Source: Minisyncoccia bacterium
GTDB taxonomy: Bacteria; Patescibacteriota; Minisyncoccia; Phycocordibacterales; CALRBL01
DNA: 64,000 nt
Direction of reading: 5' to 3'
Assembly: GCA_038230075.1 (NCBI GenBank)
Contig: JBBRNV010000001.1
Location: 114,667 to 178,666, forward strand
This document shows, piece by piece, positions 41,334 to 63,430 of the stretch; the stretch's first letter is position 1; each line of letters opens with the position of its first letter. The notes below the pieces were generated by a model. The model made no database searches. It saw nothing but the letters and a program-made list of their open reading frames with translations, and was not told where the DNA came from. The position numbers and the translations under genes are program-made.

Positions 41334-42409
41334 AGAGAAAAATTCCTCACTGAATAAATATCAGGATCCTCTTCTTTCTCTTTAGGAACTTCAGGTATTG
41401 GTTCTGCAATATCTTTGTCGGTAAGTGGAACTTCCTCAGAAATGTATTGCTCTGAACTTTGTGCTTCAACTTGTGGTGAATTGGCGTTAGCCTCAGCAGA
41501 ACTTGCGATACTTGCCTGCACAGTTTTCATAATATGTTCAACATGTTTATCTAACATATTTTCTGGTGCCTTGATTTTATTAGTGTGAATCAAACTCAGA
41601 ATAGTTCGAAGATCTTCTGCAGAAAAGAAGTCGATAGTTACTTTTCCTCCACTTCCTTCTTGTTTGGTTTCAATTTGTACACGAGTACCTAAACTTTCGG
41701 TGAGTTTTTCTTCAAGTTCGATAATTTCAGGATCAAGCACTCTCTCTTTCTTTCGAGCGCGATCTGTTGCGATCTTTCGAGCAATCAGTTCTGCTTCTCG
41801 AACATTTAATTTTTTATATAAAATTTCTTTAAACAAAGTGTCTTGTTCAAGTGGTCGGTCAGTTAACATCAGAAGTGGTCGAGTGTGTCCTTCGCTAATT
41901 TTTTGTTCTGAAAGTGCTTGGAGCATGTGTTCAGGTAAAAGCAAAATTCGAAGTGTGTTTGAAACGTACTCTCGACTCTTTCCAACCTTATCTGCAACTT
42001 CGACATGTTTGAATCCAAATTCTTTCACCAATTGTTGAAATGATTTAGCTCGATCAACAGGATTCAGATCTTCTCGTTGAATATTTTCAATAATAGCGAG
42101 CTCAAGCTTCATTAAGTTATTCTCTTCTCCTGATCTTATAAGAACAGGTACTTGTGCAAGACCTGCGAGCTTTGATGCACGAAGTCGTCTCTCTCCTGCG
42201 ATAAGTTCATACTCAACAGCGATGCCTCCATCTTCTTTTTGAATTTCTTTTCGAGTCACCACAAGAGCCTGAAGAACTCCGTATTGTCTAATCGAATCCG
42301 CGAGGCTTTGTAATGCGACTGGATCGAATTCCCGTCGTGGTTGATAGGGGTTGGGTTTGATCTTGTCGACCTCAACCCAGAAAATTGCATCGTTATAAAA
42401 CTGTGACAT
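41330..42409 (-). CDS. parB: ParB/Spo0J-family partition protein with acidic/Pro-rich C-terminal extension
   Basis: ParB box (KIKPNPYQPRREFD; LIAGERRLRA), HTH, then a ~70-aa low-complexity tail. Overlaps the topA stop by 4 nt (convergent). Confidence 0.9.
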   Translation of the reverse strand: MSQFYNDAIFWVEVDKIKPNPYQPRREFDPVALQSLADSIRQYGVLQALVVTRKEIQKEDGGIAVEYELIAGERRLRASKLAGLAQVPVLIRSGEENNLMKLELAIIENIQREDLNPVDRAKSFQQLVKEFGFKHVEVADKVGKSREYVSNTLRILLLPEHMLQALSEQKISEGHTRPLLMLTDRPLEQDTLFKEILYKKLNVREAELIARKIATDRARKKERVLDPEIIELEEKLTESLGTRVQIETKQEGSGGKVTIDFFSAEDLRTILSLIHTNKIKAPENMLDKHVEHIMKTVQASIASSAEANANSPQVEAQSSEQYISEEVPLTDKDIAEPIPEVPKEKEEDPDIYSVRNFSL

Positions 42410-42547: not shown

Positions 42548-42629
42548 GCCAGAGTGACGAAATTGGTATACGTACTCGACTCAAAATCGAGCGTCGAAAG
42601 ACATGAGGGTTCGACTCCCTCCTCTGGCA
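42548..42629 (+). tRNA. tRNA-Leu (anticodon CAA), class II long variable arm
   Basis: Acceptor GCCAGAG/CUCUGGC, anticodon loop CUCAAAA, 14-nt variable arm, GGGTTCGACTCCC T-arm. Close overall match to canonical tRNA-Leu(CAA). Confidence 0.9.
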
Positions 42630-42652
42630 CATGTGTTGGGAATCTGCTGTTT

Positions 42653-43720
42653 CTACAGATAGAAAATTTCAGGTTCAATTTCAAGATCTAATCCAAATTC
42701 TTTTTTTACCCTGTCTTTTATATAGTCTGATAAAGTGAACAACTCATCAGTTTGAGCATTACCATTTGAAGTAAGAACAAGTGCGTTTTTTTCATATACA
42801 CCAACATTCCCTCTTTGATATCCCTTAAGTCCAACCTGTTCAATCAACCAACCTGTTGGAATTTTTACTGTCTTTTCGTCTATATAAAATAAAGGAATAT
42901 TTGGATATGCATTTTTTAATACTTCGGCAACGTTTATTTCAACCAAACAATTCTTAAAGAATGATCCAACATTTGGAATCACTTGTGGTTTTGGAAGCTT
43001 CGACCAACGAATATCAGTAATGACATTTCGAATCTTTTGCTGAAGCGACATCGCAGACAAGTTGCCTGACCTTTCTTGCTCAATAAGACTTAATTCAAAC
43101 TTTTGAATTGCTTCTTGGACACCTGTATACGTTGGCATAATAGGTTGTCTTTTAGTCAGCTTATATCGAACTGAAGTAATTAACACTCTTCCTTTTTCGA
43201 ATCTTTTAAAAACACTATCTCGATATGAAAACTGACACTCTTCATTTGTCATCATTATTACTTTTCCTGTCACCATGTCAAAAATTTCTACCTCATGGAT
43301 AACTTCTGAAACCTCTTTTCCATACGCTCCAATATTTTGTATAGGACTTGCGCCAACAGTTCCTGGAATTGCAGACAACGCTTCGACTCCTGACAAATTG
43401 TGGATAACGGCGTACTCAACAAAGTCGTCCCACACTTCACCTGACGCAACTTCAATAATTGCAAAGTCTTCATTTTCTTCGATAATATGTATTCCTTTGT
43501 TTTCTATTTTGAGTGTGCATATTTCTGGGAGCACATCTTTAACGACAACGTTTGATCCTCCCCCCAGTATAAAAAGTGGAACATTCAATTCTTTTAATTT
43601 TTCCTTAAGTTCTGGAAGATCTTGTGTGTTTTGTAATCGAGAGAAGTAGAGCGAGTTCCCTCCAAGTTTTAAGGTCGTGAAATCGCGAAGGAGAACGTTT
43701 TTTTCAAGAAATAAGGCCAT
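42653..43720 (-). CDS. murB: UDP-N-acetylenolpyruvoylglucosamine reductase (long form)
   Basis: FAD-binding N-domain (ILGGGSNVVV) and MurB C-domain. 355 aa. Confidence 0.85.
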   Translation of the reverse strand: MALFLEKNVLLRDFTTLKLGGNSLYFSRLQNTQDLPELKEKLKELNVPLFILGGGSNVVVKDVLPEICTLKIENKGIHIIEENEDFAIIEVASGEVWDDFVEYAVIHNLSGVEALSAIPGTVGASPIQNIGAYGKEVSEVIHEVEIFDMVTGKVIMMTNEECQFSYRDSVFKRFEKGRVLITSVRYKLTKRQPIMPTYTGVQEAIQKFELSLIEQERSGNLSAMSLQQKIRNVITDIRWSKLPKPQVIPNVGSFFKNCLVEINVAEVLKNAYPNIPLFYIDEKTVKIPTGWLIEQVGLKGYQRGNVGVYEKNALVLTSNGNAQTDELFTLSDYIKDRVKKEFGLDLEIEPEIFYL

Positions 43721-43727
43721 GCATTGA

Positions 43728-43760
43728 ATATATCATACATGATATATTTGTGATATATTA
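43728..43760. promoter_or_regulatory. Interrupted palindrome ATATCAT-AC-ATGATAT plus downstream TGATATAT repeat in the murB/murA divergent promoter region
   Basis: Read directly. Lies 5-40 nt upstream of the HTH-murA start. Confidence 0.3.
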
Positions 43761-43766
43761 CTTTTT

Positions 43767-45302
43767 ATGAAAACAACGAGCACAGCGAAAGAAAGCCCCG
43801 TAAAGAAGATTGGTTTTTTTATAAAAACACTACGAGAGGATAAAGGAATTACACAGGCAGATTTTGCGAAGGCACTTTCAACTTCACAGAGTGCTGTTGC
43901 TCGAATGGAAAAAGGCGAACAAAACTTTAGTACCGAGCAACTCTCAAAAATAAGTAAGGTGCTTGGACGAAGTTTAATGCGACTTGAAAACTCAACAGAT
44001 GATTTTGAAATTAATGGTGGAAAAAAACTATCAGGAACGATTCAAACTAACTATTCAAAAAACGGCGCGCTCGGGCTTTTTTGCGCCGCACTATTAAACA
44101 AAGGAATCACTACTCTTCATGGAATTCCTCGAATTGAAGAAATTGCTCGTATTGTTGAAATCTTTGAAAGTATCGGTGTAGAAGTTAAGTGGATGGGAAA
44201 AAACACAGTGTGCATAACTCCTCCAAAAGTTTTCTGTCTTGAAAACATGAATCATGGTGCAGCCGCTCGTATTCGATCTGTTCTTATGATGATTGGATCG
44301 CTCACTCACCACATTCCTTCATTTTCAATCCCTCATGCTGGTGGATGCAAAATGGGACAACGAACAATTGCTGCCCATCGATATGCACTTGAAGCACTTG
44401 GCATTAATATTTCAACCAAATCAGACAGATACACTATTAATCGAAAGAAATTTAAACCTGCAGATGTGGTTATGTACGAAGCAAGTGACACCGCAACAGA
44501 GAACGCCATTATTGCAGCTGCACTTATTCCTGGAAAAACCACTCTTCGTTTTACTCCTCCAAATTATCAGGTGCAAGAAGTATGTTTCTTTTTAGAAAAA
44601 TGTGGGGTGAAGATTGAAGGAGTTGGATCAACTACTCTAACAATTCATGGCATCAAAGAAATTGACATGACAATTGAGTACACCAACAGTGAAGATCCTG
44701 TTGAATCAATGATGTTTTTGTCTGCTGGAATTGTGACTGAATCAACACTAACGGTTACTCGATGCCCCATCGAATTTCTTGCTGTTGAACTTTTAAAATT
44801 AGAAAAGATGGGTTTGAAATATACCTCAACAAAAGAATATTTCGCAGAGAATGGAAGAACAAAATTGGTAGACATCACTATTCATCCATCAAAACTGAAA
44901 GCGCCGTTAGACAAAATTCATGCTCTGCCATATCCTGGAATTAATACTGACAACCTTCCCTTTTTTGTTCCTATCGCAACCTTGGCTGTTGGAACAACAC
45001 TTATTCACGACTGGATGTGGGAAAATCGCGCAATCTATTTCACTGAACTTAACCGCCTCGGTGCAAATGTGGTTTTAGCAGACCCTCACCGAGTATTTGT
45101 CCAAGGTCCAACCAAACTTCGAGGATCTCAAATCGTATGCCCTCCAGCGCTTCGTCCTGCCATGATTATCTTAATCGCCATGCTTGCAGCTGAAGGAACC
45201 TCGATTTTGCGAAACGTATATGCTATAAATCGCGGATATGAAGATATTGCAGAACGCCTCAACTCGATTGGAGCAGACATCAGCATCATCAGCGACTTCT
45301 AA
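43767..45302 (+). CDS. murA: XRE-family HTH domain fused to UDP-N-acetylglucosamine 1-carboxyvinyltransferase (MurA)
   Basis: Residues ~15-70 are IKTLREDKGITQADFAKALSTSQSAVARMEKGEQNFSTEQLSKISKVLG, a Cro/C1-type HTH. The remaining ~436 aa are MurA, including the active-site Cys in GGCKMGQR. Confidence 0.85.
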   Translation: MKTTSTAKESPVKKIGFFIKTLREDKGITQADFAKALSTSQSAVARMEKGEQNFSTEQLSKISKVLGRSLMRLENSTDDFEINGGKKLSGTIQTNYSKNGALGLFCAALLNKGITTLHGIPRIEEIARIVEIFESIGVEVKWMGKNTVCITPPKVFCLENMNHGAAARIRSVLMMIGSLTHHIPSFSIPHAGGCKMGQRTIAAHRYALEALGINISTKSDRYTINRKKFKPADVVMYEASDTATENAIIAAALIPGKTTLRFTPPNYQVQEVCFFLEKCGVKIEGVGSTTLTIHGIKEIDMTIEYTNSEDPVESMMFLSAGIVTESTLTVTRCPIEFLAVELLKLEKMGLKYTSTKEYFAENGRTKLVDITIHPSKLKAPLDKIHALPYPGINTDNLPFFVPIATLAVGTTLIHDWMWENRAIYFTELNRLGANVVLADPHRVFVQGPTKLRGSQIVCPPALRPAMIILIAMLAAEGTSILRNVYAINRGYEDIAERLNSIGADISIISDF

Positions 45303-45312
45303 ATCTGACTCG

Positions 45313-46218
45313 ATGCAAAACAATACGAAGTTGCCTAAAGTTGTTGCTGTTATCGGACCAACAGCAACGGGAAAGACATCTATCTCAATTCGATTAGCAA
45401 AACTCTTTAATGGAGAGATTGTGTCTGCTGATTCGAGACAAGTATATAAAGGAATGAATCTTGGCACCGGAAAGGTCCTAAAAAAAGAAATGGAAGGAAT
45501 CAAACATCATCTTTTAGATGTTGCATCACCCACTAAGCAATACACCGTCGCAAAATATAAAAACGATTCAGAGAAAGCAGTTCTTCAAGTGTTCAAGAAT
45601 AATCACCTCCCCATTATTTGTGGTGGTACAGGATTTTATGTTGATGCACTTCTTGAAGGAATAATTCTTCCAGAAGTAAAAGTGAATCTTGCTTTTAGAA
45701 AAAAATTAGAGAAGTTAAGTGTAGAGGAACTATTTGCAAAGCTTATCAAATCAGATCCTGAGCGAGCAAAATCTATCGACCACCACAATAAAGTTCGCAT
45801 TATTCGCGCGCTTGAAATTGTTCAAGCTGTAGGAAAAGTTCCAAAAGTAAAAACTGAGAAAAAGTATGATGTCCTCTATGTAGGAATTGATCTTCCTGAT
45901 GAAGTACTCAAAGAAAAAATTTACACTCGCCTTAACGACAGAATGAAGAAGGGAATGCTTCGTGAAGTTGTACGCTTACATGCTAATGGTATGAGTTGGA
46001 AACGAATGTCTGAGATGGGCCTTGAATATAGATACCTTGCACTTCTTGCTCAGAAGAAAATAACAAAAGAAGAATGTTTAAAACAATTAGAGGTCGAAAT
46101 TTGGCACTACGCAAAGCGACAACGGACATGGTTCAAGCGAAATCAGAACATCGAATGGTTTAAGCACACAGACCTCAACAAAATATCAAGAAAAGTTAAA
46201 ACTTTCCTAAAAGAATAG
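45313..46218 (+). CDS. miaA: tRNA dimethylallyltransferase
   Basis: P-loop VIGPTATGKTS at the N-terminus. Start taken at ATG 45313 (the 45238 ORF extension overlaps murA). Confidence 0.9.
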   Translation: MQNNTKLPKVVAVIGPTATGKTSISIRLAKLFNGEIVSADSRQVYKGMNLGTGKVLKKEMEGIKHHLLDVASPTKQYTVAKYKNDSEKAVLQVFKNNHLPIICGGTGFYVDALLEGIILPEVKVNLAFRKKLEKLSVEELFAKLIKSDPERAKSIDHHNKVRIIRALEIVQAVGKVPKVKTEKKYDVLYVGIDLPDEVLKEKIYTRLNDRMKKGMLREVVRLHANGMSWKRMSEMGLEYRYLALLAQKKITKEECLKQLEVEIWHYAKRQRTWFKRNQNIEWFKHTDLNKISRKVKTFLKE

Positions 46219-46897: not shown

Positions 46898-46901
46898 ATT
46901 G

Positions 46902-46973
46902 CGGGCCCAGTAGGACTCGAACCTACAACTACAGTTTTGGAGACCGTTGTTTTACCATTGAAACTATGGACCC
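46902..46973 (-). tRNA. tRNA-Trp (anticodon CCA)
   Basis: Acceptor GGGUCCA/UGGGCCC, anticodon stem ACGGU/ACUGU with loop CUCCAAA, T-arm GUAGG-UUCGAGU-CCUAC. Confidence 0.85.
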
Positions 46974-47231: not shown

Positions 47232-47324
47232 GGGGGTTACTATAGCCTACTTCTTTCGAAAAATCAAACATCAATTTTTGGGTAATGAGGCCTGGTTTTC
47301 GCCTTCAAATCAGATCATTCATTG

Positions 47325-47408
47325 TGCGCAGGGAAGGATTCGAACCTTCGTAGGCCATAGGCCGACAGATTTACAGTCTGTTGTAATTGACCGCTCTACC
47401 ACCTGCGC
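47325..47408 (-). tRNA. tRNA-Tyr (anticodon GUA), long variable arm
   Basis: Acceptor GCGCAGG/CCUGCGC, anticodon loop CUGUAAA, long variable arm, GGTTCGAATCC T-loop. Confidence 0.9.
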
Positions 47409-50721: not shown

Positions 50722-53700
50722 CTATGTTGATGAACCTGTATCTGACGGCGCAGCCGGAGCTGTATCTACTGGTGCGGAAGGTGTCGAATCTGCAGGTGTT
50801 GTCGCAGGTGTCGCAGGTTCGGGCGTTGGCGTTGGATCAGTAACCGTTTGCTGAGTGTTATTAACCGGAGTATCAGCAGATGGAGTTATCACAGGATCAT
50901 TCGAATGATCGACAGGTGAAGTGGTTGTTCCAGACGATGTTGCATTTCCAGGATCTGATCCATTAATAGTTGTTGAGGCAGATGTTGTTGTTGAAGTTTC
51001 TACAGGCGCTGCAACATAATCACCATCAGATGAAACATTCGTTATTGTTGTAGTTCCAACTGAAGATGTTGTGGAGCTATTATCTTCAATAGTAATAATT
51101 GGAGGTGTACTTGTTCCTGTTGAGCTAGCATTCGCAGTTTCTGGGTCGTACGTATTGATCATGAACCAACTGAAGGTGACGACATTTGTTTGAGATCGTG
51201 CCATTCGAACCGTGAATCCTACTCCTGGAGTAATGTCTGTTACATAAAGAGGACTATCCACGGCTGATGTTGGAGTGATTGAAATCAAACTTCCTTCTGT
51301 CACTTGTCGATTTGAAATTGTAACCATAAATTGTCCTTCAGGAATACTTCCACTTCCAGCAATTTGCTGAGAACCTCGAGGAATGGTTAGTGTTCCACCA
51401 GGAATAACAGTTAAGTCTTTTACAAAGAGTGATGAAATATTAGCAACAAGTGCAGACATTTTATTAGTGATGAAGTATGCCAAGTTATCTGCTTTATTGA
51501 GAACCATGAATGCGATGTCACTGATTGCAGTATTTACTGATTCAACAAATTCTCCAACGGTTCCATTTGTTCCTGAAGATAATTCATCAGTTACTGCAGC
51601 TGCATCTGTTCGAGCTTGCTGAATATCATTCCATGTCACACTTTCGACACCGAGAAACACTGTTACTGATGGATCTTCTCCTTCAGCTCCACTATATGGT
51701 GACAACGCTCGTCCAAGAACTCGTCCTGGTTTTGTTGCTTTTGCTCCAACTCCACCAACTGTTGAAGCGGTGATGTAATCTCCAATTGCAATTGGACCAT
51801 TTTCTAAGCTCACCGTTACTGGTACTCGTCCAGCAAGAGCAATAGGAATTGCACGTGCACCGTCAATTAGTGTTGAACTCTGACTTAATCTGAAAGCAGG
51901 ATCTTTTGAATACACTCCAATAACATATGCATCATCTTTTCCAACTGATTTTCGAACCATTCCTTTTTCTCGCGTATCAATACTTACAATGTCGCCTGCG
52001 GCCAAACTGTCGTCTCGAGTTGGATAATCTTCAGCAACGTCGTACGCACCAATAGCAGAGGTTATTCCGTGACTGAAAACAAACTTACCGTTGTTAGTAT
52101 TTCCTGTTCCATCACTATTTGTGTTTCCTGCAACAAACTTAATATCACCGTAGTTTTTAAATCCGTTAAGTTCTGACTCTGAAGTTGTTGCTGCAGCATT
52201 AAATTCAAGAGCATATGATTCAGAGTCTGCCACGTTATAACTAAACACTTGTGTTGCACTTACTTTTTCTGTTCCAACAAACAAACTGTCTCCAGCTTGA
52301 ACGAGTGCAGTGACACCGTCGGCTGTTGTTGAAGCATTTACTTTTGAAACATATCCAGCGGTACTACTTGAAACTCGAGTCCAATTTGTTCCACCAGAAT
52401 ACTTATACAAAATCGCGCCGGCTGGTTCGTATATACCCACATACAATGAATCTTTATATATACTCATCGCAGATACTCTGTCGAGGTTTTGTGTAGCAAC
52501 ATTTGTTTCAATCGTACCAACAGTTGAACTTGAGACTTGTGTAAATGAGTTTCCAGCCGCTACTGTTCCGTCGAATCGAACCACTTGTGCAGTATTTGCA
52601 CCATCGTCGATACCAATATACGTAGCACCATTGTACACAGCCATGGTTCTAATATTGTCGACAGCAGTTGAGGCGCCGAATGTTCCTACTGCACTATTCA
52701 TCAAAAGCATCGGGGTTGCAGCGTTCGAACCTTCATATCGATATACCGCAGCGGAGTTCAATTTTGAAACACCGACATATAGCGCTCCATTATCAATAGA
52801 CATCGCATTAACACTATTCACAAGAGTAGCGGCTCCGAATGTTCCCGCGCCTGTTGCAACAACGGTGTTGTTTACACGTGTCCATTGTGTAGACGAAGAA
52901 GTATTCAATCCGTTAAATCGATACACTTCAGCACCACCTGTTTTAGCGGTTCCGATATAAAGTTGTCCATTATAGATGGCCATCGCACTGACAGAGTCAA
53001 TTGCAGTTGTTGTTGCATTTCCTCCGATTGATCCGGCGGTCGTACTTGAAACTTTCGTCCATGTACTATTTCCTTCGTATCGATACACTTCAGCGCCTCC
53101 AGTTTTAGCGGTTCCGATATAAAGTTGTCCGTTATACACCGCCATTGAAGCAATTGAGGCAATGGTGTTCGTTTGTGTACCCGATCCTCCGATAACTCCA
53201 GCTGTTGTACTTGAAACTTTTGTCCAACCTGTTCCTCCGTTGTATCGATACACTTCTGCAGCTCCTGTTTTCATCACACCGGCATATACTGATCCGTTCC
53301 AAACAGCCATGGCTGTTGTAGTAGAGAGTGATGCAGTTCCTCCTGATTGAATAGTTCCTGTAGTATTGATTAAATCAGTATAAGTTCCTGTAGCGTTAAC
53401 ACGTTTTCCAATAAGCACATTTCCTCCTTCAATAGTTAATCGTTCAGTTGGAGATGTTGTTCCAATTCCAACATTACCTGTAGTTCCATCCGTGAAAATA
53501 CTGGTGACGTTTGAAGTGGTACTGAATACGCTAAATGTTCCAGCGGTAGTCAGTGTTTGTGCTGCTGATGTTGTTCCGATACCAACCGAACCATTAGTAC
53601 CATTAAAATAAATATTTGTTCCACTCGTTGTCCATTGTGTTCCTGAACCGTTTGTTGCAACAAGGGTTCCGTTTTGATACAAGTTTCCTGTGAAGTTAAT

Positions 53701-56700
53701 GTCTCCAGCAACACCAAGTTTAAATGTTGCTGTTGGAGTTGTTGTACCAACTCCAACTGTTCCGTTTGCCAATACTGTCAACAACGTTGAACCTGTTGTT
53801 GATGCAACAGTGAAGAGTGATGTTGTTGGTGCGGTTGTCGTTCCTTGAATCGTAAAGACAGATGAAGTTGATGTGGTTCCAAGTGAAATATTTCGAGCGA
53901 TCAAATCTCTCCATGTTCCGAGTGTTCCATTATTAACTTCAAGTATTCCTTGGCCAGTTCTTCCAAGACCTGTTGCAACTTGGAATGAGTAATTTGAACC
54001 ATCATTTGAGAATGTTACCAATCCGTTACTTGTAACTTGTACTGCCGCAGAACCTCCGGCAAATCCAGCACCAATGCCAAAAAACGGAGCATTGTTAAAT
54101 GACAACGTTTTATTGTATACCTGCGTAGAGTAACTTCCTCCGTTCACGTAGACAAGTGTCACATCCCAAGAACTTACACCGTCCGAAATAAATTCATATC
54201 GAACAAAGTTTCCTGTTCCTGATGGTCCTTGAAATTGTGTGTTTGTATCAGTTGTTAACCCTCCCAACGTATCAGAACCTCCTCTTATAAATTTAAGGTA
54301 ATTTGAAATTGTTGGTTTACCATTTGAATAGACATAAAGCTTTCGTCCATTTGTATAACTACTAGCAGCTGGGAGAGTAATAGTTCGAATAGCAGTAAAT
54401 GCCGCCGTAAGATTCAAAACATCTGTTGTTGTTGCAACTGTTTTGTTAGCGTCTCCCATTGTATCAAGTGTATTGATATCGTATGCGTTTGAAACAGCAA
54501 CAGCTGCACCTCCACCGTTTCCTTTTAGTACAGAACTTGTTGTTGGGATAATTCCAAGTGATGAGGTTGCAACCCATTGAGTAACAGATCCTGTAGTTTG
54601 AAGTATTTGTCCGTTTGATCCTGCTGAACCATTTGCTTTAAATGCGCCAGTTAAGTTGAATGAGCCGGTGACTGAGAGTGTGTCTGATGGAGATGAGGTA
54701 CCAATCCCCACATTACCTGCAAAATAGTTGTTACCAGAACCATAAGTTCTAATAATTCCGTTTGTTGTATCTTTCAAATCAAGTTGACCACTTGTAAAAA
54801 GATTCATTACGTCACTTCCATTTGAAGCATCTCCTGATGAATCACTGTTTCTCCAGCTAAATTTACCTACTCCTGGGTTTCCCGGATCCATATACATTGC
54901 AAATGTCCACTCTTGAATTCCGAATCCCCATCGTTGACCTCCACCGCCGCTGTAAAGATTTATTTTGTCTCCAAGGGATGTGGCGAAAGTAAGAGGTGCA
55001 TCAGGACTAGTAATACCAATCCCCACATTTCCGTTTTGAAGAATCGTAAATAAATTTAATCCTGTTGAAGAAGCAACTGCAAAAGGATTGAGGCCTGCTG
55101 AGCCCTTCACGTTAAATGTTGTTGCTGAAGATGTTGCATTCACTCCTGCAACTGTTCCGTCGTCGATGAATAATCCTGTTGAAAGTGTTGAAGCTCCCGT
55201 CCATCGAGCAAGGTATCCGTTGGTTCCTCCTGATAATCCAGCACCACCAGAAATTCCAAGGGAAGAAGTGGCAACCCATTGTGTTCCTGATCCTGTAGTC
55301 TGAAGAACCATTCCACTTGATCCTGCTGATCCGTTTGCTTTGAAAGCGCCGGTTAAGTTGAATGAGCCGGTGACTGAGAGTGTGTCTGATGGAGTTGACG
55401 AACCAATTCCAAAGTTTCCATTTTGAAGAAGGGTTAAAAGGTGAGTTCCTGTTGATGATGCGATGATGAAAGGATTTGTTCCTCCAGTTCCAGTAAGGGC
55501 AAGTTGCGCAATTGGAGACGATGTTCCGATTCCAACATTTCCCTGAACAATGAGTCCATTTGTTGGTGCAGCGATTCCCGCATATGACGCTCCAATACCT
55601 GCTCGCCCATTTAAACTGAGAGTGTTTGTGGTGGTGGTTGTTCCAACCCCAATTGCTCCACCAGTACTTATAACAAATCTGTCGACATAGCCCGTACCAT
55701 CATATGATTGGAAGGTAAGATTTCCAGTAGGATGAACACTTCCTTGAATTGGAACAAGAAACGCCCTAAACGACACTGGTGAACTTGCTGGATCAAATGT
55801 TTCGTAACCATTACCCATCCATGTGATTGCAGGAGAATATTGTTGAAAGCCGTTTGTTGCGACAGTTGTGTTTGTTAATGCAATTCCATTTGTTGCAGCG
55901 CCAAGAGTTGGTGAAGTTGTTGTGCCTAATCCGTCAGATCGAATTTCAAGTTTTGCATAAAATGGATTTGTAATTCCAATTCCAACATTTCCATTTTGAG
56001 CAACAGTAAACAAACTCAAACCAGTCGATGATGCAACATTAAAAGCATTAACTCCGGCATTACCCGCAACATTAAATGTCGTTGTTGAAGATGTTGCGTT
56101 GATTCCAGAAACAGTTCCGTTGTCGATGAATAATCCTGTCGATAATGTTGAAGCTGATGTCCACCGAGCAACATAGCCAAGTGTTCCTCCTGAGAGCGAT
56201 GCTCCAATACCGAGTGATGATGTTGAGACCCATTGTGTTCCTGTTCCTGTTGTTTGAAGTATTTGTCCGTTTGATCCTGCTGAACCATTAGCTTTGAAGG
56301 CTCCGGTTAGATTCATCGATCCCACAACAGTAAATTTGTCTGATGCAGTAGTTGTACCTACTCCAACATTTCCGCCTGCTGTTGCCAAACTAATTTTTCC
56401 GTACACACCACCAGCAACTCCAGCATTAATTACTACATTTCCTCCGAAGGCACCGAATCCCCCGGCACCTCCTCCTGTAATATTTACATTTCCTCCGTAA
56501 GCACTCGATCCACTGAGTCCTGCTGTAAAGTTTAAATCTCCTCCTGTACCTCCTGATGCTGATGCATCACCTCCCGTTAAATTAATGGCACCTCCTGTAC
56601 CATCACTTCCTCCTCCTGCTTTAATATCAATATATCCTCCGGCACCAGAAGCTGCATTTCCTGATCTTAAAATAATATTTCCTCCAGACACTGCACCAGA

Positions 56701-58602
56701 TGCACCGTATACAGCAAGAGCGTCGGGAACAAATCCACCAATTCCTCCTGAGGTAGGTCCAACGAGCGAGAGTGTTGCGTTAGGAGATGAAGAGCCGATG
56801 CCAACATTTCCATTTGCAAGAACTGAAACGTATGATGCACCTGATGATGAAGCAATGCTTAACAATGAAACATTTGGCGAAGTAGATGCTCCTTGAATAT
56901 TAAATAAAGACACCCCGGTTGAAGTACCAATATTTACTGTTGCACCTTTCAAAAGCAGATTTCTATTTACTCCTGTTCCAAGAGCGGTTACACCAACCTC
57001 TAAAACATTCCCATTCCAGTTAATTGAACCTCGTTCGTAGTTCGTTGTGTTTGTGTATGCATTATATAATTCCAATCCTCCAGATGAGATGGTTGATCCC
57101 GACCCATCTGTAAATCTGACACCCGCACCGAAGGTTGCTGCAGGGTACATAAAATTCCCACTTAAGGCAAATGGATTTCCTGAAATTCTTCCACCTGATA
57201 TATTTCCAGTATTCGTTGTAAAGTTTCCAGTTACTGAGACGTCTCCGTTTTGTTCAATCGTAAATAAGTTTGTTCCCGTCGATGATGCAACGGCAAATGG
57301 GTTGAGCCCTGCTGTTCCTCGAATATTAAATGTCGTTGTTGCACTTGTTGCATTAATTCCTGCAACTGTTCCGTCGTCGATGAATAATCCTGTTGAAAGT
57401 GTTGAAGCTCCCGTCCATCGAGCAAGGTATCCGTTGGCACCTCCTGATAAACCAAACCCCAATGATGATGTCGACACATATGTTGGAATTCCTGTAGGTC
57501 CCGTTGACTGAAGAAGTTGTCCTGCAGTTCCTGCAGAACCACCAGCGTTAAGTGGTCCACTGAAAGAAAGTCCTCCAGAAAACGTTCCTGTTGCCGCTGT
57601 TAAATTTCCGCCATTTAAGTTAAGTGGTGTTGCTCCTCCTGATGCCAAGAAGCCAAGGTTGATTAGGCCTTGTCGGAGATCAGTGTTGTTTGCTAATTGA
57701 ACAATAGGAGTTGCACCAAAGAAACCGAGTTTTTGATTTGTTGCGGTACCAAGTTGTGTTCCTGTGCCTGTTCCTAACACAATATTTTTTGCATCAGCGA
57801 TTGAGAGACCATTGCTTGCAGTGATGAGTCCTGCAGCAGATAAGGCATTTGAGAATGTTGAAGTTCCTGTTGTTGATGCTGAGGTGATAATTCCAGTGAA
57901 ATACGCATCACCATTCACTGTTAACTTTGAAAAAGGCGTCGACGACCCCACCCCCACATTCCCATTGTTCAAAAGTGACAACACTGATGTTGTTGCTGGT
58001 CCGAAAAACTCAGCGAGCTTTCCTGCTCCGTTTTGTTGCACTTGAAAAAAGGTTGCAGCAGATGATGTTGAATTAAGTACATCACTTCGAAGAAATTGTT
58101 GATCGCTGTATCCGTTCAGTGAGAGTGCAGTGAGCGCAGAAGGAGCTGATGCAAGTGCTTTTCGTGGTGACATTTCTCCATCCCACGCAGGAGATGATGT
58201 TCCCCCAATGTTCACTGAGAGATAGAGTTGTTGATTGAAGTTAATTGAAGCAAGAGAAGTGACATTTCCAAGAAGAACACTAAAGAGTCCGTTTGTGACG
58301 GTGACTTTGTTTGCACTGGTTCGACTTTCAACCCATAAACACTGGGCGTCTCCAGAACATGTTCCTTGAGAAGAACCGACCGAGGTTGATGACGCATAGA
58401 GTTTGAACTCAATGTTGTATGTTCCGTTTGGAACAGCAACACTTGATGAGGCGTATAGCTTTCCTTGGTAGTTGATGGTTTGGGGGGCTGCTGCTTCAAC
58501 TTTTGCAACAGAAAAAGACGTTCCCAGTAAGCCGAAGGCTGGCCCAAAAATGAGAGAAAAGATGACAGAAAAAACAGTAATTTTGAAGGCGTGCAACTTC
58601 AT
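50722..58602 (-). CDS. Giant secreted repeat protein (2626 aa), putative surface adhesin/fibre
   Basis: 7.9-kb uninterrupted ORF with a signal peptide and Gly/Thr/Ser/Asn-rich beta-repeat modules. One ~100-aa module occurs at least three times (LSGGTNGYLARWTGASTLSTGLFIDDGTVAGINATS...). There are ~6 propeller-like repeats (AEVYRYEGNSTWTKVSSTTAG) and a Pro/Thr-rich C-terminal tail. Confidence 0.85.
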   Translation of the reverse strand: MKLHAFKITVFSVIFSLIFGPAFGLLGTSFSVAKVEAAAPQTINYQGKLYASSSVAVPNGTYNIEFKLYASSTSVGSSQGTCSGDAQCLWVESRTSANKVTVTNGLFSVLLGNVTSLASINFNQQLYLSVNIGGTSSPAWDGEMSPRKALASAPSALTALSLNGYSDQQFLRSDVLNSTSSAATFFQVQQNGAGKLAEFFGPATTSVLSLLNNGNVGVGSSTPFSKLTVNGDAYFTGIITSASTTGTSTFSNALSAAGLITASNGLSIADAKNIVLGTGTGTQLGTATNQKLGFFGATPIVQLANNTDLRQGLINLGFLASGGATPLNLNGGNLTAATGTFSGGLSFSGPLNAGGSAGTAGQLLQSTGPTGIPTYVSTSSLGFGLSGGANGYLARWTGASTLSTGLFIDDGTVAGINATSATTTFNIRGTAGLNPFAVASSTGTNLFTIEQNGDVSVTGNFTTNTGNISGGRISGNPFALSGNFMYPAATFGAGVRFTDGSGSTISSGGLELYNAYTNTTNYERGSINWNGNVLEVGVTALGTGVNRNLLLKGATVNIGTSTGVSLFNIQGASTSPNVSLLSIASSSGASYVSVLANGNVGIGSSSPNATLSLVGPTSGGIGGFVPDALAVYGASGAVSGGNIILRSGNAASGAGGYIDIKAGGGSDGTGGAINLTGGDASASGGTGGDLNFTAGLSGSSAYGGNVNITGGGAGGFGAFGGNVVINAGVAGGVYGKISLATAGGNVGVGTTTASDKFTVVGSMNLTGAFKANGSAGSNGQILQTTGTGTQWVSTSSLGIGASLSGGTLGYVARWTSASTLSTGLFIDNGTVSGINATSSTTTFNVAGNAGVNAFNVASSTGLSLFTVAQNGNVGIGITNPFYAKLEIRSDGLGTTTSPTLGAATNGIALTNTTVATNGFQQYSPAITWMGNGYETFDPASSPVSFRAFLVPIQGSVHPTGNLTFQSYDGTGYVDRFVISTGGAIGVGTTTTTNTLSLNGRAGIGASYAGIAAPTNGLIVQGNVGIGTSSPIAQLALTGTGGTNPFIIASSTGTHLLTLLQNGNFGIGSSTPSDTLSVTGSFNLTGAFKANGSAGSSGMVLQTTGSGTQWVATSSLGISGGAGLSGGTNGYLARWTGASTLSTGLFIDDGTVAGVNATSSATTFNVKGSAGLNPFAVASSTGLNLFTILQNGNVGIGITSPDAPLTFATSLGDKINLYSGGGGQRWGFGIQEWTFAMYMDPGNPGVGKFSWRNSDSSGDASNGSDVMNLFTSGQLDLKDTTNGIIRTYGSGNNYFAGNVGIGTSSPSDTLSVTGSFNLTGAFKANGSAGSNGQILQTTGSVTQWVATSSLGIIPTTSSVLKGNGGGAAVAVSNAYDINTLDTMGDANKTVATTTDVLNLTAAFTAIRTITLPAASSYTNGRKLYVYSNGKPTISNYLKFIRGGSDTLGGLTTDTNTQFQGPSGTGNFVRYEFISDGVSSWDVTLVYVNGGSYSTQVYNKTLSFNNAPFFGIGAGFAGGSAAVQVTSNGLVTFSNDGSNYSFQVATGLGRTGQGILEVNNGTLGTWRDLIARNISLGTTSTSSVFTIQGTTTAPTTSLFTVASTTGSTLLTVLANGTVGVGTTTPTATFKLGVAGDINFTGNLYQNGTLVATNGSGTQWTTSGTNIYFNGTNGSVGIGTTSAAQTLTTAGTFSVFSTTSNVTSIFTDGTTGNVGIGTTSPTERLTIEGGNVLIGKRVNATGTYTDLINTTGTIQSGGTASLSTTTAMAVWNGSVYAGVMKTGAAEVYRYNGGTGWTKVSSTTAGVIGGSGTQTNTIASIASMAVYNGQLYIGTAKTGGAEVYRYEGNSTWTKVSSTTAGSIGGNATTTAIDSVSAMAIYNGQLYIGTAKTGGAEVYRFNGLNTSSSTQWTRVNNTVVATGAGTFGAATLVNSVNAMSIDNGALYVGVSKLNSAAVYRYEGSNAATPMLLMNSAVGTFGASTAVDNIRTMAVYNGATYIGIDDGANTAQVVRFDGTVAAGNSFTQVSSSTVGTIETNVATQNLDRVSAMSIYKDSLYVGIYEPAGAILYKYSGGTNWTRVSSSTAGYVSKVNASTTADGVTALVQAGDSLFVGTEKVSATQVFSYNVADSESYALEFNAAATTSESELNGFKNYGDIKFVAGNTNSDGTGNTNNGKFVFSHGITSAIGAYDVAEDYPTRDDSLAAGDIVSIDTREKGMVRKSVGKDDAYVIGVYSKDPAFRLSQSSTLIDGARAIPIALAGRVPVTVSLENGPIAIGDYITASTVGGVGAKATKPGRVLGRALSPYSGAEGEDPSVTVFLGVESVTWNDIQQARTDAAAVTDELSSGTNGTVGEFVESVNTAISDIAFMVLNKADNLAYFITNKMSALVANISSLFVKDLTVIPGGTLTIPRGSQQIAGSGSIPEGQFMVTISNRQVTEGSLISITPTSAVDSPLYVTDITPGVGFTVRMARSQTNVVTFSWFMINTYDPETANASSTGTSTPPIITIEDNSSTTSSVGTTTITNVSSDGDYVAAPVETSTTTSASTTINGSDPGNATSSGTTTSPVDHSNDPVITPSADTPVNNTQQTVTDPTPTPEPATPATTPADSTPSAPVDTAPAAPSDTGSST

Positions 58603-62227: not shown

Positions 62228-63430
62228 CTATTCTGTGGATAACTTCTTTAAGATATCTATTGTTTTTATAATATCTTTTTTTGTTGTTTCTCTTCCCATT
62301 GAAAATCGTATTGATGAACTTGCACATTCTTTTTTTCCAATCGCTTCAAGTACATATGACGAAGAATCTTCATTCAAATTTTGACAACTACTCACCGCAG
62401 AACAAGAAACATTATGAACATCAAGAGAAATAACTAGAAATTCTGAATCTCTTCCCTTAAAACAAACATTGAGTATATTTGGTAGCATATTCGGGCCATT
62501 TTCTCCGTTTATTTCAACATGTTTGATATTTGTTTTTACTTCTTCGATAAAAAAATCTTTCAAGGTTTGCATTCGAACAGATTCGGTGCTTTTGAGAGAA
62601 ATGGCTATAGATAACGCTTCAGCAAAGCCTATAACTAAAGGAATATTCTCAGTTCCAGGTCGTAATCCTGCTTCCTGCCCACCTCCAAACAGTATTGGCT
62701 GAAGTGTGGTTGTTCGTTTTTTAAAAAGCATTCCAACACCTCTTGGGCCATACATCTTCATTCCATCAAGTGTCATAAGATCTAATCCCAAACTCTGTAC
62801 TGAAATATCGAGGTAACATGTTACCTGACTAGCATCAGTATGTAGATATGGAAAATCAGTTAGTGTTCTTTTGTGTTCGTGTTTAAAATTTCTGATAAAC
62901 TTTGCAAGTTCTTTTACAGGTTGAATTGTTCCGATTTCATTATTCGCAAGCATTATTGTCACAAGTATTGTTTCAGCGGTGAGAGCTTGGGCAACATCTT
63001 TTGCCGAAACGAATCCTTTTTCATTTGGAGCAACATGCGTTACTCGACCACCCTTCATTTCAATTTCTTTTAATACATTTCGAACTGATGAATGTTCAAT
63101 AGATGATGCAACAATGTGTGGTGTTTGTATTCCTCTTTTTTTTGCTTCTTCAAAAACTCCGAGAAGTGCAATATTATTTGCTTCTGTTCCACCTGAAGTA
63201 AAAATAATCGTATCAGGTGTTGTGTGTAAAAGATCAGCAACTTTTTTTCGAGATTGATCGAGTACAATTTTTGCCTCCACTCCTTCTTGAGAAAGCGACG
63301 AGGGATTACCAACATAATTAACTAAATAAGGCTGCATTACCTTAAAGACCCGCTTATCGAGTGGTGTGACTGAAGCGTAATCAAGATAAATCCTTTTTCT
63401 ACCAAACATAGATTGTAAGCCCTTATACAT
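62228..63430 (-). CDS. Cysteine desulfurase (class V aminotransferase, NifS/IscS-like)
   Basis: PLP-fold with SGGTEANN, the PLP-Lys region LDGMKMYGPRGVG and a C-terminal active-site Cys region. The start may be the internal Met 9. Confidence 0.85.
   Translation of the reverse strand: MYKGLQSMFGRKRIYLDYASVTPLDKRVFKVMQPYLVNYVGNPSSLSQEGVEAKIVLDQSRKKVADLLHTTPDTIIFTSGGTEANNIALLGVFEEAKKRGIQTPHIVASSIEHSSVRNVLKEIEMKGGRVTHVAPNEKGFVSAKDVAQALTAETILVTIMLANNEIGTIQPVKELAKFIRNFKHEHKRTLTDFPYLHTDASQVTCYLDISVQSLGLDLMTLDGMKMYGPRGVGMLFKKRTTTLQPILFGGGQEAGLRPGTENIPLVIGFAEALSIAISLKSTESVRMQTLKDFFIEEVKTNIKHVEINGENGPNMLPNILNVCFKGRDSEFLVISLDVHNVSCSAVSSCQNLNEDSSSYVLEAIGKKECASSSIRFSMGRETTKKDIIKTIDILKKLSTE

What the first reader, a model, noticed from the sequence alone, without database searches (positions are those of the whole stretch)
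43728..45302. XRE-type HTH fused to MurA, with a palindrome in its own promoter region
The first ~75 aa of the 511-aa ORF form a Cro/C1-type helix-turn-helix (GITQADFAKALSTSQSAVARMEKGEQNFSTEQLSKISKVLG). The rest is a complete MurA with the active-site Cys intact. A DNA-binding domain fused to the first committed enzyme of peptidoglycan synthesis is unusual. It suggests direct transcriptional (auto)regulation coupled to enzyme abundance. The divergent murB/murA spacer carries an interrupted palindrome ATATCAT-AC-ATGATAT (43730-43745) plus a TGATATAT repeat. This is the right size for an XRE dimer operator.
Basis: partly seen in the sequence, partly recalled or inferred. Interest (0 to 1): 0.55.

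Follow-up and report, generated by a model that had tools for sequence, protein, structure and literature searches.

The report
MurA enzyme fused to its own repressor
In a large group of tiny uncultured bacteria, the first enzyme of cell-wall synthesis (MurA) carries a DNA-binding domain, and an 18-base palindrome in its own promoter is conserved with it, so the enzyme very probably switches off its own gene and its neighbour murB.

Summary

**The gene.** ORF 43767-45302 encodes an XRE-type HTH (aa 19-70), a flexible linker, and a full MurA domain with its catalytic signature intact.

**Not an artefact.**
- An independent assembly is identical over this region.
- All 120 best homologue clusters carry the fusion.
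- 336 species-level Patescibacteria genomes encode a relative.

**The operator.**
- The palindrome is T-ATATCA-yATr-TGATAT-A. It lies upstream of the fusion gene in 67 of 71 relatives, whatever the upstream gene.
- It usually overlaps an extended -10 element placed 6-7 nt before a start codon with no Shine-Dalgarno sequence.
- The same 18-mer fronts Gp49/HTH toxin-antitoxin operons, whose antitoxin has nearly the same recognition helix.

**A sister subfamily.** It keeps the HTH and the operator but has lost the MurA catalytic residues. It sits in the middle of mur gene clusters, four times divergent from a separate MurA that has the active-site Cys.

**Best reading.** The protein is a bifunctional enzyme and autorepressor. 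Control of DNA binding by a ligand is only inferred.

**Literature and correction.** Three full-text searches found no description of this fusion.

The parts
43767..45302 (+). HTH-murA fusion gene (511 aa plus stop codon)
   Evidence: It is a single ORF. Pfam finds HTH_3 and EPSP_synthase. The identical gene appears in an independent assembly.
43821..43976 (+). XRE/Cro-C1 type HTH domain (aa 19-70)
   Evidence: PF01381 E = 1.3e-13. The AF2 model has helices at 11-25, 30-36, 41-48 and 56-66.
43881..43910 (+). Recognition-helix segment TSQSAVARME (aa 39-48)
   Evidence: T39, S40, Q41, S42, A43, A45, R46 and E48 are invariant in 20 diverse homologues. The catalytically dead subfamily keeps the same motif, and Gp49-linked antitoxins carry T[TK]QSN[VI]AR[IM]E.
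43965..43997 (+). Inter-domain linker (aa 67-77)
   Evidence: pLDDT is below 50 for residues 71-76 in the AF2 model. This stretch varies in the alignment.
43998..45290 (+). MurA (enolpyruvyl transferase) domain, aa 78-508
   Evidence: It aligns over its full length to solved MurA structures (5ujs, E = 6e-54). The signature K98, N99, R170, C194, R199, D395, R463, R489 is intact.
44346..44348 (+). Codon of the active-site Cys194 (equivalent to E. coli MurA Cys115)
   Evidence: Translation of 44337-44363 gives AGGCKMGQR.
43729..43746 (.). 18-bp operator T-ATATCA-TACA-TGATAT-A (perfect palindrome extends to 43727-43748)
   Evidence: Found in the window. It is conserved upstream of the fusion gene in 67 of 71 relatives, with both arms close to 2 bits and sharp edges.
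43727..43735 (-). Left operator arm, read on the minus strand as TGATATATT: the predicted extended -10 of murB, 6 nt before its ATG
   Evidence: The promoter scan finds a minus-strand site with TG plus TATATT ending at 43727. A TGnTAnnnT-N6/7-ATG arrangement recurs at the starts of eight of the 43 ORFs screened in this window.
43751..43759 (+). Third copy of TGATATATT: the predicted extended -10 of HTH-murA, 7 nt before ATG 43767 (leaderless mRNA)
   Evidence: In 17 relatives the right operator arm itself sits in this position (TGATATAnT-N6-ATG).
42653..43720 (-). murB, divergently transcribed and sharing the operator region
   Evidence: Pfam finds FAD_binding_4 + MurB_C. The divergent murB arrangement is present in 38 relatives.

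Best explanation
The 511-aa protein is most likely both an active MurA enzyme and the repressor of its own gene (a 'trigger enzyme').

**Mechanism.**
- Two N-terminal XRE helix-turn-helix domains bind the two arms of the 18-bp palindrome T-ATATCA-TACA-TGATAT-A (43729-43746). The half-sites are 11 bp apart, so both lie on one face of the DNA.
- The genome has almost no Shine-Dalgarno sequences. Its promoters look like extended -10 elements (TGnTAnnnT) placed 6-7 nt before the ATG, which implies leaderless mRNAs.
- The left operator arm is the -10 of murB. The operator covers the region just upstream of the murA -10.
- Bound protein should therefore exclude RNA polymerase from both promoters. 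Expression of the first two committed steps of peptidoglycan precursor synthesis would then be held in check by the amount of MurA itself.

**What is shown and what is inferred.**
- Shown by comparison: the fusion, the invariant recognition helix, the conserved operator, its overlap with the predicted promoter, and the existence of catalytically dead paralogues that keep the HTH and the operator inside mur clusters.
- Inferred: DNA binding itself, repression rather than activation, dimerisation, and enzyme activity.
- Speculative: that the ligand state of the MurA domain (UDP-GlcNAc, PEP or UDP-MurNAc, through its open/closed movement) modulates DNA binding.
For: **1. The fusion is genuine and widespread.**
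- All 120 best homologue clusters carry PF01381 + PF00275 at about 500 aa.
- 336 GTDB species genomes encode a relative.
- An independent assembly is identical.

**2. The recognition helix is invariant**.

**3. The operator travels with the gene.**
- The core ATATCA-N4-TGATAT (at most 1 mismatch) lies within 200 nt upstream of the fusion gene in 67 of 71 loci. Only 15 other such hits occur in 575 kb.
- It is present when the upstream gene is divergent murB (38 loci) and when it is a co-directional gene (17 loci).
- GC-rich genomes keep this AT-rich site.
- Positions not used to select the sites are nearly invariant: flanking T 67/67 and A 65/67, and the central A-T at 66/67 and 65/67. Information drops sharply outside the 18 bp, and the two arms are equally conserved.

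**4. Geometry.**
- The commonest distance gives TGATATAnT-N6-ATG (17 loci), and 46 of 67 sites end within 12 nt of the ATG.
- The window has a Shine-Dalgarno sequence at 2 of 43 genes, and an extended -10-like element 6-7 nt before several first genes.

**5. Reverse test.**
- Of 120 metagenome loci holding the exact 18-mer, 41 have an HTH of this subfamily within 1.2 kb. The density is 0.183 per kb near the site against 0.0066 per kb elsewhere, a 28-fold difference.
- About 21 of the 41 are HTH-murA. About 19 are small XRE proteins; 15 exact-18-mer loci have a Gp49 toxin ORF starting at the site. Their helix is T[TK]QSN[VI]AR[IM]E.

**6. Catalytically dead subfamily.**
- It keeps the helix but lacks the Cys loop and 3-5 other catalytic residues.
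- It lies divergent from murA-murB or mur-ligase operons, with the operator in the spacer.

**7. Single natural examples.**
- L055, which has no HTH, has the palindrome split by about 39 nt.
- L071 has a symmetric operator change together with an altered helix.

**8. The enzyme side.**
- The MurA domain aligns over its full length to solved MurAs.
- 233 of about 245 fusion clusters keep the full catalytic signature.
- None of 81 loci has a second MurA homologue in the fetched flanks of up to 4 kb on each side.
Against: - There is no experimental evidence for DNA binding, repression or enzyme activity.
- The half-site TGATATA resembles this organism's own extended -10 consensus. Part of its conservation could therefore be promoter conservation.
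- MurA is generally monomeric (own knowledge), and no dimer interface was modelled.
- The strict MurA equivalog model TIGR01072 is not reached.
- E. coli Asp369 is Ala here (family motif CPPALRP).
- Small XRE antitoxins with the same helix exist and could in principle bind the same site in trans.
- Whether this is the only MurA in the genome could not be checked: only 64 kb of it was available.
Confidence: 0.72

Rival explanations
1. The palindrome is only two back-to-back extended -10 promoter elements for the divergent, leaderless murB and murA genes. It is not a protein operator, and the HTH does something else.
For: - TGnTAnnnT placed 6-7 nt before the ATG recurs at several first genes of this window, for example parB with TGATATACT-N6-ATG.
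- The left arm is exactly in that position for murB, and the third copy is in that position for murA.
Against: - The full palindrome is kept in 17 loci where the upstream gene is co-directional, so no divergent promoter is needed there.
- The two arms are equally conserved and the element has sharp 18-bp edges.
- The middle copy in the window serves neither predicted promoter.
- The same 18-mer precedes unidirectional Gp49-HTH operons.
- GC-rich genomes keep it.
- The HTH-less L055 keeps only the -10 half next to the gene.
Confidence: 0.1
2. The operator is real, but a separate small XRE protein binds it, for example a HigA-like antitoxin with the same recognition helix. The fused HTH would have a different role, such as tethering MurA to the nucleoid or contacting another protein.
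For: Small XRE proteins with the helix T[TK]QSN[VI]AR[IM]E sit next to the identical 18-mer in metagenomes.
Against: - The operator co-occurs with the fusion gene itself in 67 of 71 genomes. No small XRE gene was noted beside it in those loci, but they were not specifically screened for one.
- The fused helix is invariant across about 40% protein divergence.
- Catalytically dead paralogues keep the HTH together with the operator, which makes sense only if that HTH uses the site.
Confidence: 0.07
3. The MurA domain of the window protein is only a ligand sensor, and the working MurA is encoded elsewhere. The protein would then be a pure regulator, like the Cys-less subfamily.
For: - A pure-regulator subfamily exists beside a separate MurA.
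- TIGR01072 is below its cut-off.
- Asp369 is replaced.
- The rest of the genome was not available.
Against: - The signature K98, N99, R170, G192, G193, C194, R199, D395, R463, R489 is intact in 233 of about 245 fusion clusters. This implies selection for catalysis.
- None of 81 loci has a second MurA homologue in the fetched flanks of up to 4 kb on each side, whereas the dead subfamily has one next door in 4 of its 7 distinct contexts.
- The next enzyme of the pathway, murB, is the usual neighbour.
Confidence: 0.08
4. The palindrome acts as an RNA or DNA hairpin (attenuator, processing site or cruciform) and not as a protein-binding site.
For: The 46-nt spacer folds to -8.6 kcal/mol, z = -2.3 against shuffled sequences. 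One relative (L071) has a compensatory change on both arms.
Against: - The sequence is conserved, not just the pairing.
- The stem is almost entirely A-U.
- In the commonest geometry the right arm is the -10 element itself, so the palindrome would not be transcribed.
- No terminator-like site was found.
Confidence: 0.03

Closest known systems
BzdR of Azoarcus (XRE-type HTH + shikimate-kinase-derived effector domain; PMC3602430)
   Same: An N-terminal HTH_3 domain is joined by a linker to a domain derived from a metabolic enzyme, and the protein acts on the promoter of the pathway it belongs to. NCBIfam PRK08154 (annotated 'anaerobic benzoate catabolism transcriptional regulator', which by my own knowledge is the BzdR-type architecture) is a weak hit to aa 4-77. 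The Cys-less subfamily found here is the direct analogue: its enzymatic residues are lost.
   Different: The enzyme fold is EPSP-synthase/MurA, not shikimate kinase. The window protein keeps every catalytic residue checked. It therefore resembles the synthetic bifunctional 'Q1 chimera' of that paper more than BzdR itself. The pathway is peptidoglycan synthesis, and the organisms are Patescibacteria.
Bifunctional enzyme-repressors ('trigger enzymes'): BirA, PutA, NadR (own knowledge)
   Same: One polypeptide has a DNA-binding domain and a catalytically competent enzyme domain, with the operator in the promoter of its own pathway genes.
   Different: The DNA-binding folds differ (winged HTH in BirA, ribbon-helix-helix in PutA), as do the enzyme and the pathway. 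For those proteins, ligand control of DNA binding has been demonstrated. Here it is only inferred.
Type II toxin-antitoxin antitoxins of the HigA/XRE type paired with Gp49 (PF05973) toxins
   Same: They have the same 18-bp palindrome, TATATCATATATGATATA, at the operon start. Their recognition helix is nearly the same, and they share 41-52% identity over the HTH.
   Different: The window has no toxin partner. Here the HTH is fused to a 430-aa enzyme instead of being a small protein of about 100 aa.
Controller (C) proteins of restriction-modification systems, e.g. C.Esp1396I (3clc), and ClgR (3f51)
   Same: These are the closest solved HTH sequences (E = 5e-4 to 7e-5). By my own knowledge they are small XRE dimers that autoregulate through palindromic operators overlapping their promoters.
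   Different: The similarity is weak and limited to the generic HTH_3 fold. They have no enzyme domain.
Known control of MurA: ReoM/ClpCP/PrkA-dependent proteolysis in Firmicutes (PMC7286690, PMC8959180)
   Same: Both set the cellular level of MurA as the control point of peptidoglycan synthesis.
   Different: That control is post-translational and needs separate kinase, adaptor and protease proteins. Here control would be transcriptional and built into the enzyme itself.

Membership tests
XRE / Cro-C1 helix-turn-helix (Pfam HTH_3, PF01381) | Profile match above the curated cut-off | tested here: met
   51.1 bits against a cut-off of 23, aa 19-70.
XRE / Cro-C1 helix-turn-helix (Pfam HTH_3, PF01381) | Compact helical bundle with helix 2 - turn - helix 3 | tested here: met
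   The AF2 model has helices at 11-25, 30-36, 41-48 and 56-66, with pLDDT 79-90 over aa 11-50 and 70-74 over aa 51-70.
XRE / Cro-C1 helix-turn-helix (Pfam HTH_3, PF01381) | Sequence-specific binding to a two-fold symmetric operator | not testable with these tools
   Only comparative support is available: the conserved 18-bp palindrome and the same site at operons with a homologous HTH.
MurA (UDP-N-acetylglucosamine 1-carboxyvinyltransferase) | Full-length EPSP-synthase fold scoring above the MurA family cut-offs | tested here: inconclusive
   PF00275 scores 151 bits over positions 2-417 of 417. NF006873 scores 321.6, above its cut-off of 297. The equivalog TIGR01072 scores 311.3, below its cut-off of 392.7.
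MurA (UDP-N-acetylglucosamine 1-carboxyvinyltransferase) | Catalytic and substrate-binding residues (E. coli K22, N23, R91, C115, R120, D305, R371, R397; list from own knowledge) | tested here: met
   They correspond to K98, N99, R170, C194, R199, D395, R463 and R489. E. coli D369 is Ala461 throughout the family.
MurA (UDP-N-acetylglucosamine 1-carboxyvinyltransferase) | Genomic association with the next pathway step | tested here: met
   murB is the divergent neighbour in the window and in 38 relatives, and lies downstream in 3 more.
MurA (UDP-N-acetylglucosamine 1-carboxyvinyltransferase) | Enolpyruvyl transfer from PEP to UDP-GlcNAc | not testable with these tools
   Needs an enzyme assay or genetic complementation.
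Trigger enzymes / bifunctional enzyme-repressors (BirA, PutA, NadR type) | DNA-binding domain and catalytically competent enzyme domain in one polypeptide | tested here: met
   at sequence level only.
Trigger enzymes / bifunctional enzyme-repressors (BirA, PutA, NadR type) | Operator in the promoter of its own gene or pathway genes | tested here: met
   The conserved palindrome overlaps the predicted -10 or start site of murA and of murB.
Trigger enzymes / bifunctional enzyme-repressors (BirA, PutA, NadR type) | DNA binding controlled by the enzyme's substrate or product | not testable with these tools
   No data. The only support is the existence of a sensor-only subfamily.
BzdR-type regulators (HTH + catalytically inactive enzyme-derived effector domain) | Loss of the enzyme's catalytic residues | tested here: not met
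   The window protein keeps all of them. The sister subfamily (P0126, P0145, P0147, P0168, P0170, P0272-P0276) does meet this feature.
Type II toxin-antitoxin antitoxin (HigA-like, Gp49 partner) | Small antitoxin gene next to a toxin gene in one operon | tested here: not met
   The neighbours are murB and miaA, with no Gp49/RelE-like ORF. Only the HTH subfamily and the operator sequence are shared.

The most novel reading that the evidence does not exclude
Patescibacteria would have a dedicated regulon for cytoplasmic peptidoglycan precursor synthesis, run by transcription factors derived from MurA.
- Members would be murA, murB, the mur ligases, ddl, and possibly glmS and a NUDIX/nucleotidyl-transferase pair.
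- The large open-to-closed movement of the MurA fold on binding UDP-GlcNAc or UDP-MurNAc would switch the fused HTH on or off the 18-bp operator.
- The family would preserve three stages of 'an enzyme becoming a regulator' in living genomes: the plain enzyme, the bifunctional enzyme-repressor (this window), and the catalytically dead pure regulator beside a separate MurA.
Probability: 0.35. Interest if true: 0.85.

Novelty: new variant of a known kind. Interest (0 to 1): 0.7.

Why it matters
- **A new control mode for MurA.** MurA is the committed step of cell-wall synthesis and the target of fosfomycin. Its known control is mainly post-translational (ReoM/ClpCP in Firmicutes). A MurA that represses its own promoter would be a different and very compact solution, which fits organisms with tiny genomes and few regulators.
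- **An immediately testable regulator-operator pair.** Almost no transcription factor has a known site in the Candidate Phyla Radiation. This pair can be tested in vitro without culturing the organisms.
- **A natural example of enzyme-to-regulator evolution.** The catalytically intact fusion and the catalytically dead paralogue use the same operator. For BzdR, the bifunctional intermediate had to be built artificially (PMC3602430).
- **Annotation.** Every source name seen in these searches calls these proteins plain MurA, or in one case a hypothetical protein, including the Cys-less clusters that carry a name at all. That is probably wrong for the Cys-less ones.

Tried and rejected
**Literature.**
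- Three full-text searches combining MurA with HTH, XRE, fusion and CPR/Parcubacteria/Patescibacteria found no description of the fusion.
- One candidate paper, PMC8066302, concerns a Cys-to-Asp fosfomycin-resistant MurA and is irrelevant.

**Artefact.** Rejected.

**Internal start inside the HTH.** Met47 is not conserved.

**General-promoter explanation for TGATATATT.**
- The exact 9-mer is not common in the window: 4 copies, 3 of them here.
- The degenerate extended -10 form is common, so this rival was kept but rated low.

**Other operator sites in the window.**
- There is no other exact match. One 1-mismatch site lies inside murB coding sequence (43011) and was treated as chance.
- The fourth TGATATATT, at 57196, lies inside a 2,626-aa ORF and was treated as chance.

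**DnaA-box cluster in the window.** None was found: 18 hits against 18.9 expected.

**Source names for the Cys-less proteins.** The cluster look-up returned none.

**Flanking genes of the exact-18-mer loci without an HTH nearby.** 34 flanking ORFs of at least 110 aa were scanned. They are heterogeneous (WD40 and other families) and were treated as chance matches, with one exception, a glmS.

**Method note.** My first regular expression for the helix missed GC-rich relatives. Inspecting the ORFs directly showed that they do have both the HTH and the palindrome.

**Not run.** A fold search of the AF2 model was skipped, because the sequence match to solved MurA structures was already decisive.
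Full report
**1. What is in the window**

- ORF 43767-45302 (+) encodes 511 aa.
- Pfam finds HTH_3 at aa 19-70 (E = 1.3e-13) and a full-length EPSP_synthase domain at aa 83-498.
- The NCBIfam MurA subfamily model NF006873 is passed (321.6 against 297). The strict equivalog TIGR01072 is not (311 against 392.7).
- The MurA part aligns end to end with solved MurA structures (5ujs, E = 6e-54).
- The AF2 model has mean pLDDT 84 and pTM 0.78. It shows HTH helices at 11-25, 30-36, 41-48 and 56-66, a low-confidence linker (71-76), and MurA from residue 78.
- Divergent murB (42653-43720, minus strand; FAD_binding_4 + MurB_C) starts only 46 bp from the fusion gene.
It is really a perfect 10+2+10 palindrome at 43727-43748, followed by a third copy of TGATATATT at 43751-43759.
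- Three of the four exact TGATATATT copies in the 64 kb window lie here. The core ATATCA-N4-TGATAT occurs exactly once in the window.
- One detail of the finding is wrong. Codon 43893 is GCT. The only in-frame internal start is ATG 43905 (Met47), and that residue is Ile in many homologues.

**2. Not an artefact**

- An independent Logan assembly (SRR19962015) contains the identical 2,650-nt murB-murA segment.
- All 120 best homologue clusters (67-79% identity) carry PF01381 + PF00275 and are about 500 aa long.
- A scan of one genome per GTDB species found 336 genomes with a relative. Nearly all of the 80 loci it returned include the HTH.
- The named source lineages are Zambryski-, Jorgensen-, Yanofsky-, Uhr- and Nomurabacteria, Paceibacterota and Minisyncoccia. 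A second search adds Lipton-, Taylor-, Colwell- and Doudnabacteria.
- The recognition-helix segment TSQSAVARME-G-QN is invariant or nearly so in 20 diverse members.

**3. The palindrome is a conserved cis-element tied to this gene**

- I took the upstream regions of the 80 related loci.
- The core ATATCA-N4-TGATAT (at most 1 mismatch in 12 positions) lies within 200 nt upstream of the fusion gene in 67 of 71 loci with an assignable start. Only 15 other such hits occur in 575 kb.
- The exceptions have explanations. In L007 the site is further upstream (-343). In L003 the contig is too short. In L066 the start codon lies inside the site. L071 has a symmetric variant. Allowing 2 mismatches within 600 nt gives 70 of 73 loci.
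- Positions I did not use to select the sites are almost invariant: flanking T 67/67 and A 65/67, and the central Y-A-T-R with A 66/67 and T 65/67. Information falls to 0.1-0.6 bits immediately outside the 18 bp, and the two arms are equally conserved.
- The element follows the fusion gene, not murB. The upstream gene is divergent murB in 38 loci, another divergent gene in 11, and a co-directional gene in 17.
- GC-rich relatives keep this AT-rich site.

**4. Position relative to the promoter**

- The window has a Shine-Dalgarno sequence at only 2 of 43 long ORFs. Several first genes have TGnTAnnnT ending 6-7 nt before the ATG, including parB, murB, murA and the ORFs at 24674 and 25806. This implies extended -10 promoters and leaderless mRNAs.
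- In the relatives, the commonest distance from the core to the ATG is 9 nt (17 loci). That geometry is TGATATAnT-N6-ATG, so the right operator arm is itself the extended -10. Forty-six of 67 sites end within 12 nt of the ATG.
- In the window, the left arm read on the minus strand is TGATATATT-N6-ATG of murB. The consensus scan also picks this site.
- The duplicated third copy is TGATATATT-N7-ATG of murA, and the palindrome sits immediately upstream of it.
- A protein bound to the palindrome would therefore cover the murB -10 and the upstream part of the murA promoter. I infer repression by occlusion. This has not been shown.

**5. Reverse test**

- I searched metagenomes for the exact 18-mer TATATCATATATGATATA.
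- Forty-one loci have an HTH of this subfamily within 1.2 kb. The density is 0.183 per kb near the site and 0.0066 per kb elsewhere in the same loci, a 28-fold difference.
- About 21 of the 41 are full HTH-murA genes that start 2-185 nt from the site.
- About 19 are small XRE proteins. Fifteen exact-18-mer loci have a Gp49 (PF05973) toxin ORF that starts at the palindrome.
- The antitoxin helix is T[TK]QSN[VI]AR[IM]E-G-QN, against TSQSAVARME-G-QN in the fusion.
- The same helix motif therefore goes with the same operator in two unrelated gene contexts. In one of them (type II antitoxins), autoregulation through a promoter palindrome is the established rule (own knowledge).
- The flanking genes of the remaining loci, where long enough to scan, are heterogeneous, and I treat those matches as chance.

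**6. A catalytically dead sister subfamily**

- A search with the HTH plus linker turned up more distant fusions: P0126, P0145, P0147, P0168 and P0170. A follow-up search added P0272-P0276.
- They keep the helix TSQSA[VI]AR[IM]E-G-QN. They lack the GGC Cys loop and 3-5 of the other catalytic residues (equivalents of E. coli R91, R120, R371 and R397).
- By contrast, 233 of about 245 fusion clusters sampled keep the full signature K98, N99, R170, G192, G193, C194, R199, D395, R463, R489.
- The dead forms sit in the centre of mur clusters:

| Locus | Divergent operon | Downstream of the dead fusion |
|---|---|---|
| L203-205 | murA (438 aa) - murB | ddl, mur ligase |
| L206 | murA (452 aa) - murB | mur ligase |
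| L209/L210 | murA (450 aa) - murB | mur ligase |
| L202 | unknown ORF - mur ligase - murA (438 aa) | mur ligase |
| L211, L212 | three mur ligases (including one MurD-like) | mur ligase in L211; ddl and mur ligase in L212 |
| L208 | none; it is the third gene of a NUDIX - NTP_transferase operon | - |

. The L202 copy was translated and has the loop PGGCVLGVR; the L203 and L206 copies also keep the Cys loop.
- The operator is in the spacer. It is exact in L202, L203 and L211; in L211 it is ATATCATACATGATAT, identical to the window's core. It has one mismatch in L212 and L208. L206 and L209 have variants at the mirror positions 5/14.
- The only plausible role for these proteins is regulatory, with the MurA fold acting as a sensor. 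That supports a regulatory role for the HTH in the catalytic fusions too.
- None of the 81 catalytic-fusion loci has a second MurA homologue in the fetched flanks of up to 4 kb on each side.

**7. Single natural experiments (n = 1 each)**

- L055 encodes a closely related MurA (76% identity) that starts at the linker and has no HTH. Its promoter keeps TGATATAAT-N6-ATG, but the left arm lies about 39 nt away.
- L071 has the operator TATAGCATATATGCTATA, a symmetric change, together with the helix TTQSTIARIE.

**8. Mechanism and rivals**

- Best reading, confidence about 0.7: the protein is a bifunctional MurA and autorepressor. It binds as a dimer to the 18-bp operator, whose half-site centres are 11 bp apart. 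It shuts down leaderless murA transcription and, in this genome, murB as well.
- Ligand control through the MurA open/closed transition is attractive. The sensor-only subfamily fits it, and MurA is known to bind UDP-MurNAc tightly (own knowledge). It remains speculative.
- Four rivals were considered:
 - The palindrome is only back-to-back promoters (0.10).
 - A separate small XRE protein is the real binder (0.07).
 - The MurA domain is only a sensor here as well (0.08).
 - The palindrome acts as an RNA or DNA hairpin (0.03; fold of -8.6 kcal/mol, z = -2.3).

**9. Comparison with known systems and novelty**

- The closest analogue by architecture is BzdR, an XRE HTH joined to a shikimate-kinase-derived domain. 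For BzdR, a bifunctional intermediate had to be built synthetically (PMC3602430).
- By logic, the closest analogues are BirA, PutA and NadR (own knowledge).
- By HTH sequence, the closest are Gp49-linked antitoxins and, among solved structures, C-proteins and ClgR.
- Known MurA control in Firmicutes is proteolytic (PMC7286690, PMC8959180).
- Three literature searches found no description of an HTH-MurA fusion or of its operator. Every source name seen in these searches calls these proteins plain MurA, or in one case a hypothetical protein.
- I rate this a new variant of a known kind (enzyme-repressor fusion), with interest 0.7.

Noticed in passing
L004, L005, L014, L020, L039, L040, L041, L051 (upstream of HTH-murA); not in the window spacer: Exact DnaA-box-like 9-mers (TTATCCACA) flank the operator at fixed positions, -14/-15 and -70/-75 from the ATG. 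Seventeen of the 27 exact copies in 570 kb lie within the 150-nt upstream windows. Three of these are really murB codons (MIVDK). The pattern could mean DnaA co-regulation of murA or proximity to oriC.
   Followed up: partly
L077 7937-7952; L208 2686-2701 and 3242-3257; L141 2169-2186: Extra operator copies lie in front of genes that may supply UDP-sugar. In L077 the site abuts a NUDIX + NTP_transferase pair, and L208 has the same pair in one operon with a Cys-less HTH-MurA. In L141 the site lies 10 nt before glmS, in the same extended -10 geometry. This hints at a wider cell-wall precursor regulon.
   Followed up: partly
L102, L103, L124, L148, L149, L163, L166 and other metagenome loci: Gp49 (PF05973) toxin + HTH_3 antitoxin operons start exactly at the same 18-mer, TATATCATATATGATATA. 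Their antitoxin HTH is 41-52% identical to the HTH of the MurA fusion. The fusion's HTH and operator may derive from such a module.
   Followed up: partly
whole window (43 long ORFs): Only 2 of 43 ORFs have a Shine-Dalgarno-like motif. Eight have TGnTAnnnT ending 6-7 nt before the start codon, for example parB at 42409, the divergent pair at 25762/25806, and the ORF at 63430. This suggests widespread leaderless mRNAs driven by extended -10 promoters.
   Followed up: partly
L055 3988-5320 and its upstream 160 nt: A closely related MurA (76% identity) lacks the HTH and starts at the linker. The palindrome is split by about 39 nt, while the -10 half (TGATATAAT-N6-ATG) is kept.
   Followed up: partly
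L071, L206, L209/L210 operators: Operator variants cluster at the mirror positions 5/14: TATAGCATATATGCTATA (L071), TATAACATATATGCTATA (L206) and TATAACTTATATGTTATA (L209). Only L071 also has a changed recognition helix.
   Followed up: partly
L203 5493-7082; L212 5563-7254: The D-Ala-D-Ala ligase downstream of the Cys-less regulator is fused to a Peptidase_C39_2 domain (529-563 aa).
   Followed up: no
window 50722-58602 (-): A very long ORF of 2,626 aa. The fourth exact TGATATATT of the window (57196) lies inside it and is probably a chance match.
   Followed up: no
window 42548-42630, 46901-46973, 47324-47408: tRNA-Leu(CAA) lies between parB and murB. tRNA-Trp and tRNA-Tyr lie downstream of the DNA-alkylation-repair gene.
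   Followed up: no
window 45238-46218 (+): The mechanical miaA ORF overlaps the 3' end of murA by 65 nt. The gene call on the identical Logan contig starts miaA 11 nt after the murA stop (301 aa), so the overlap is probably an over-extended ORF.
   Followed up: partly
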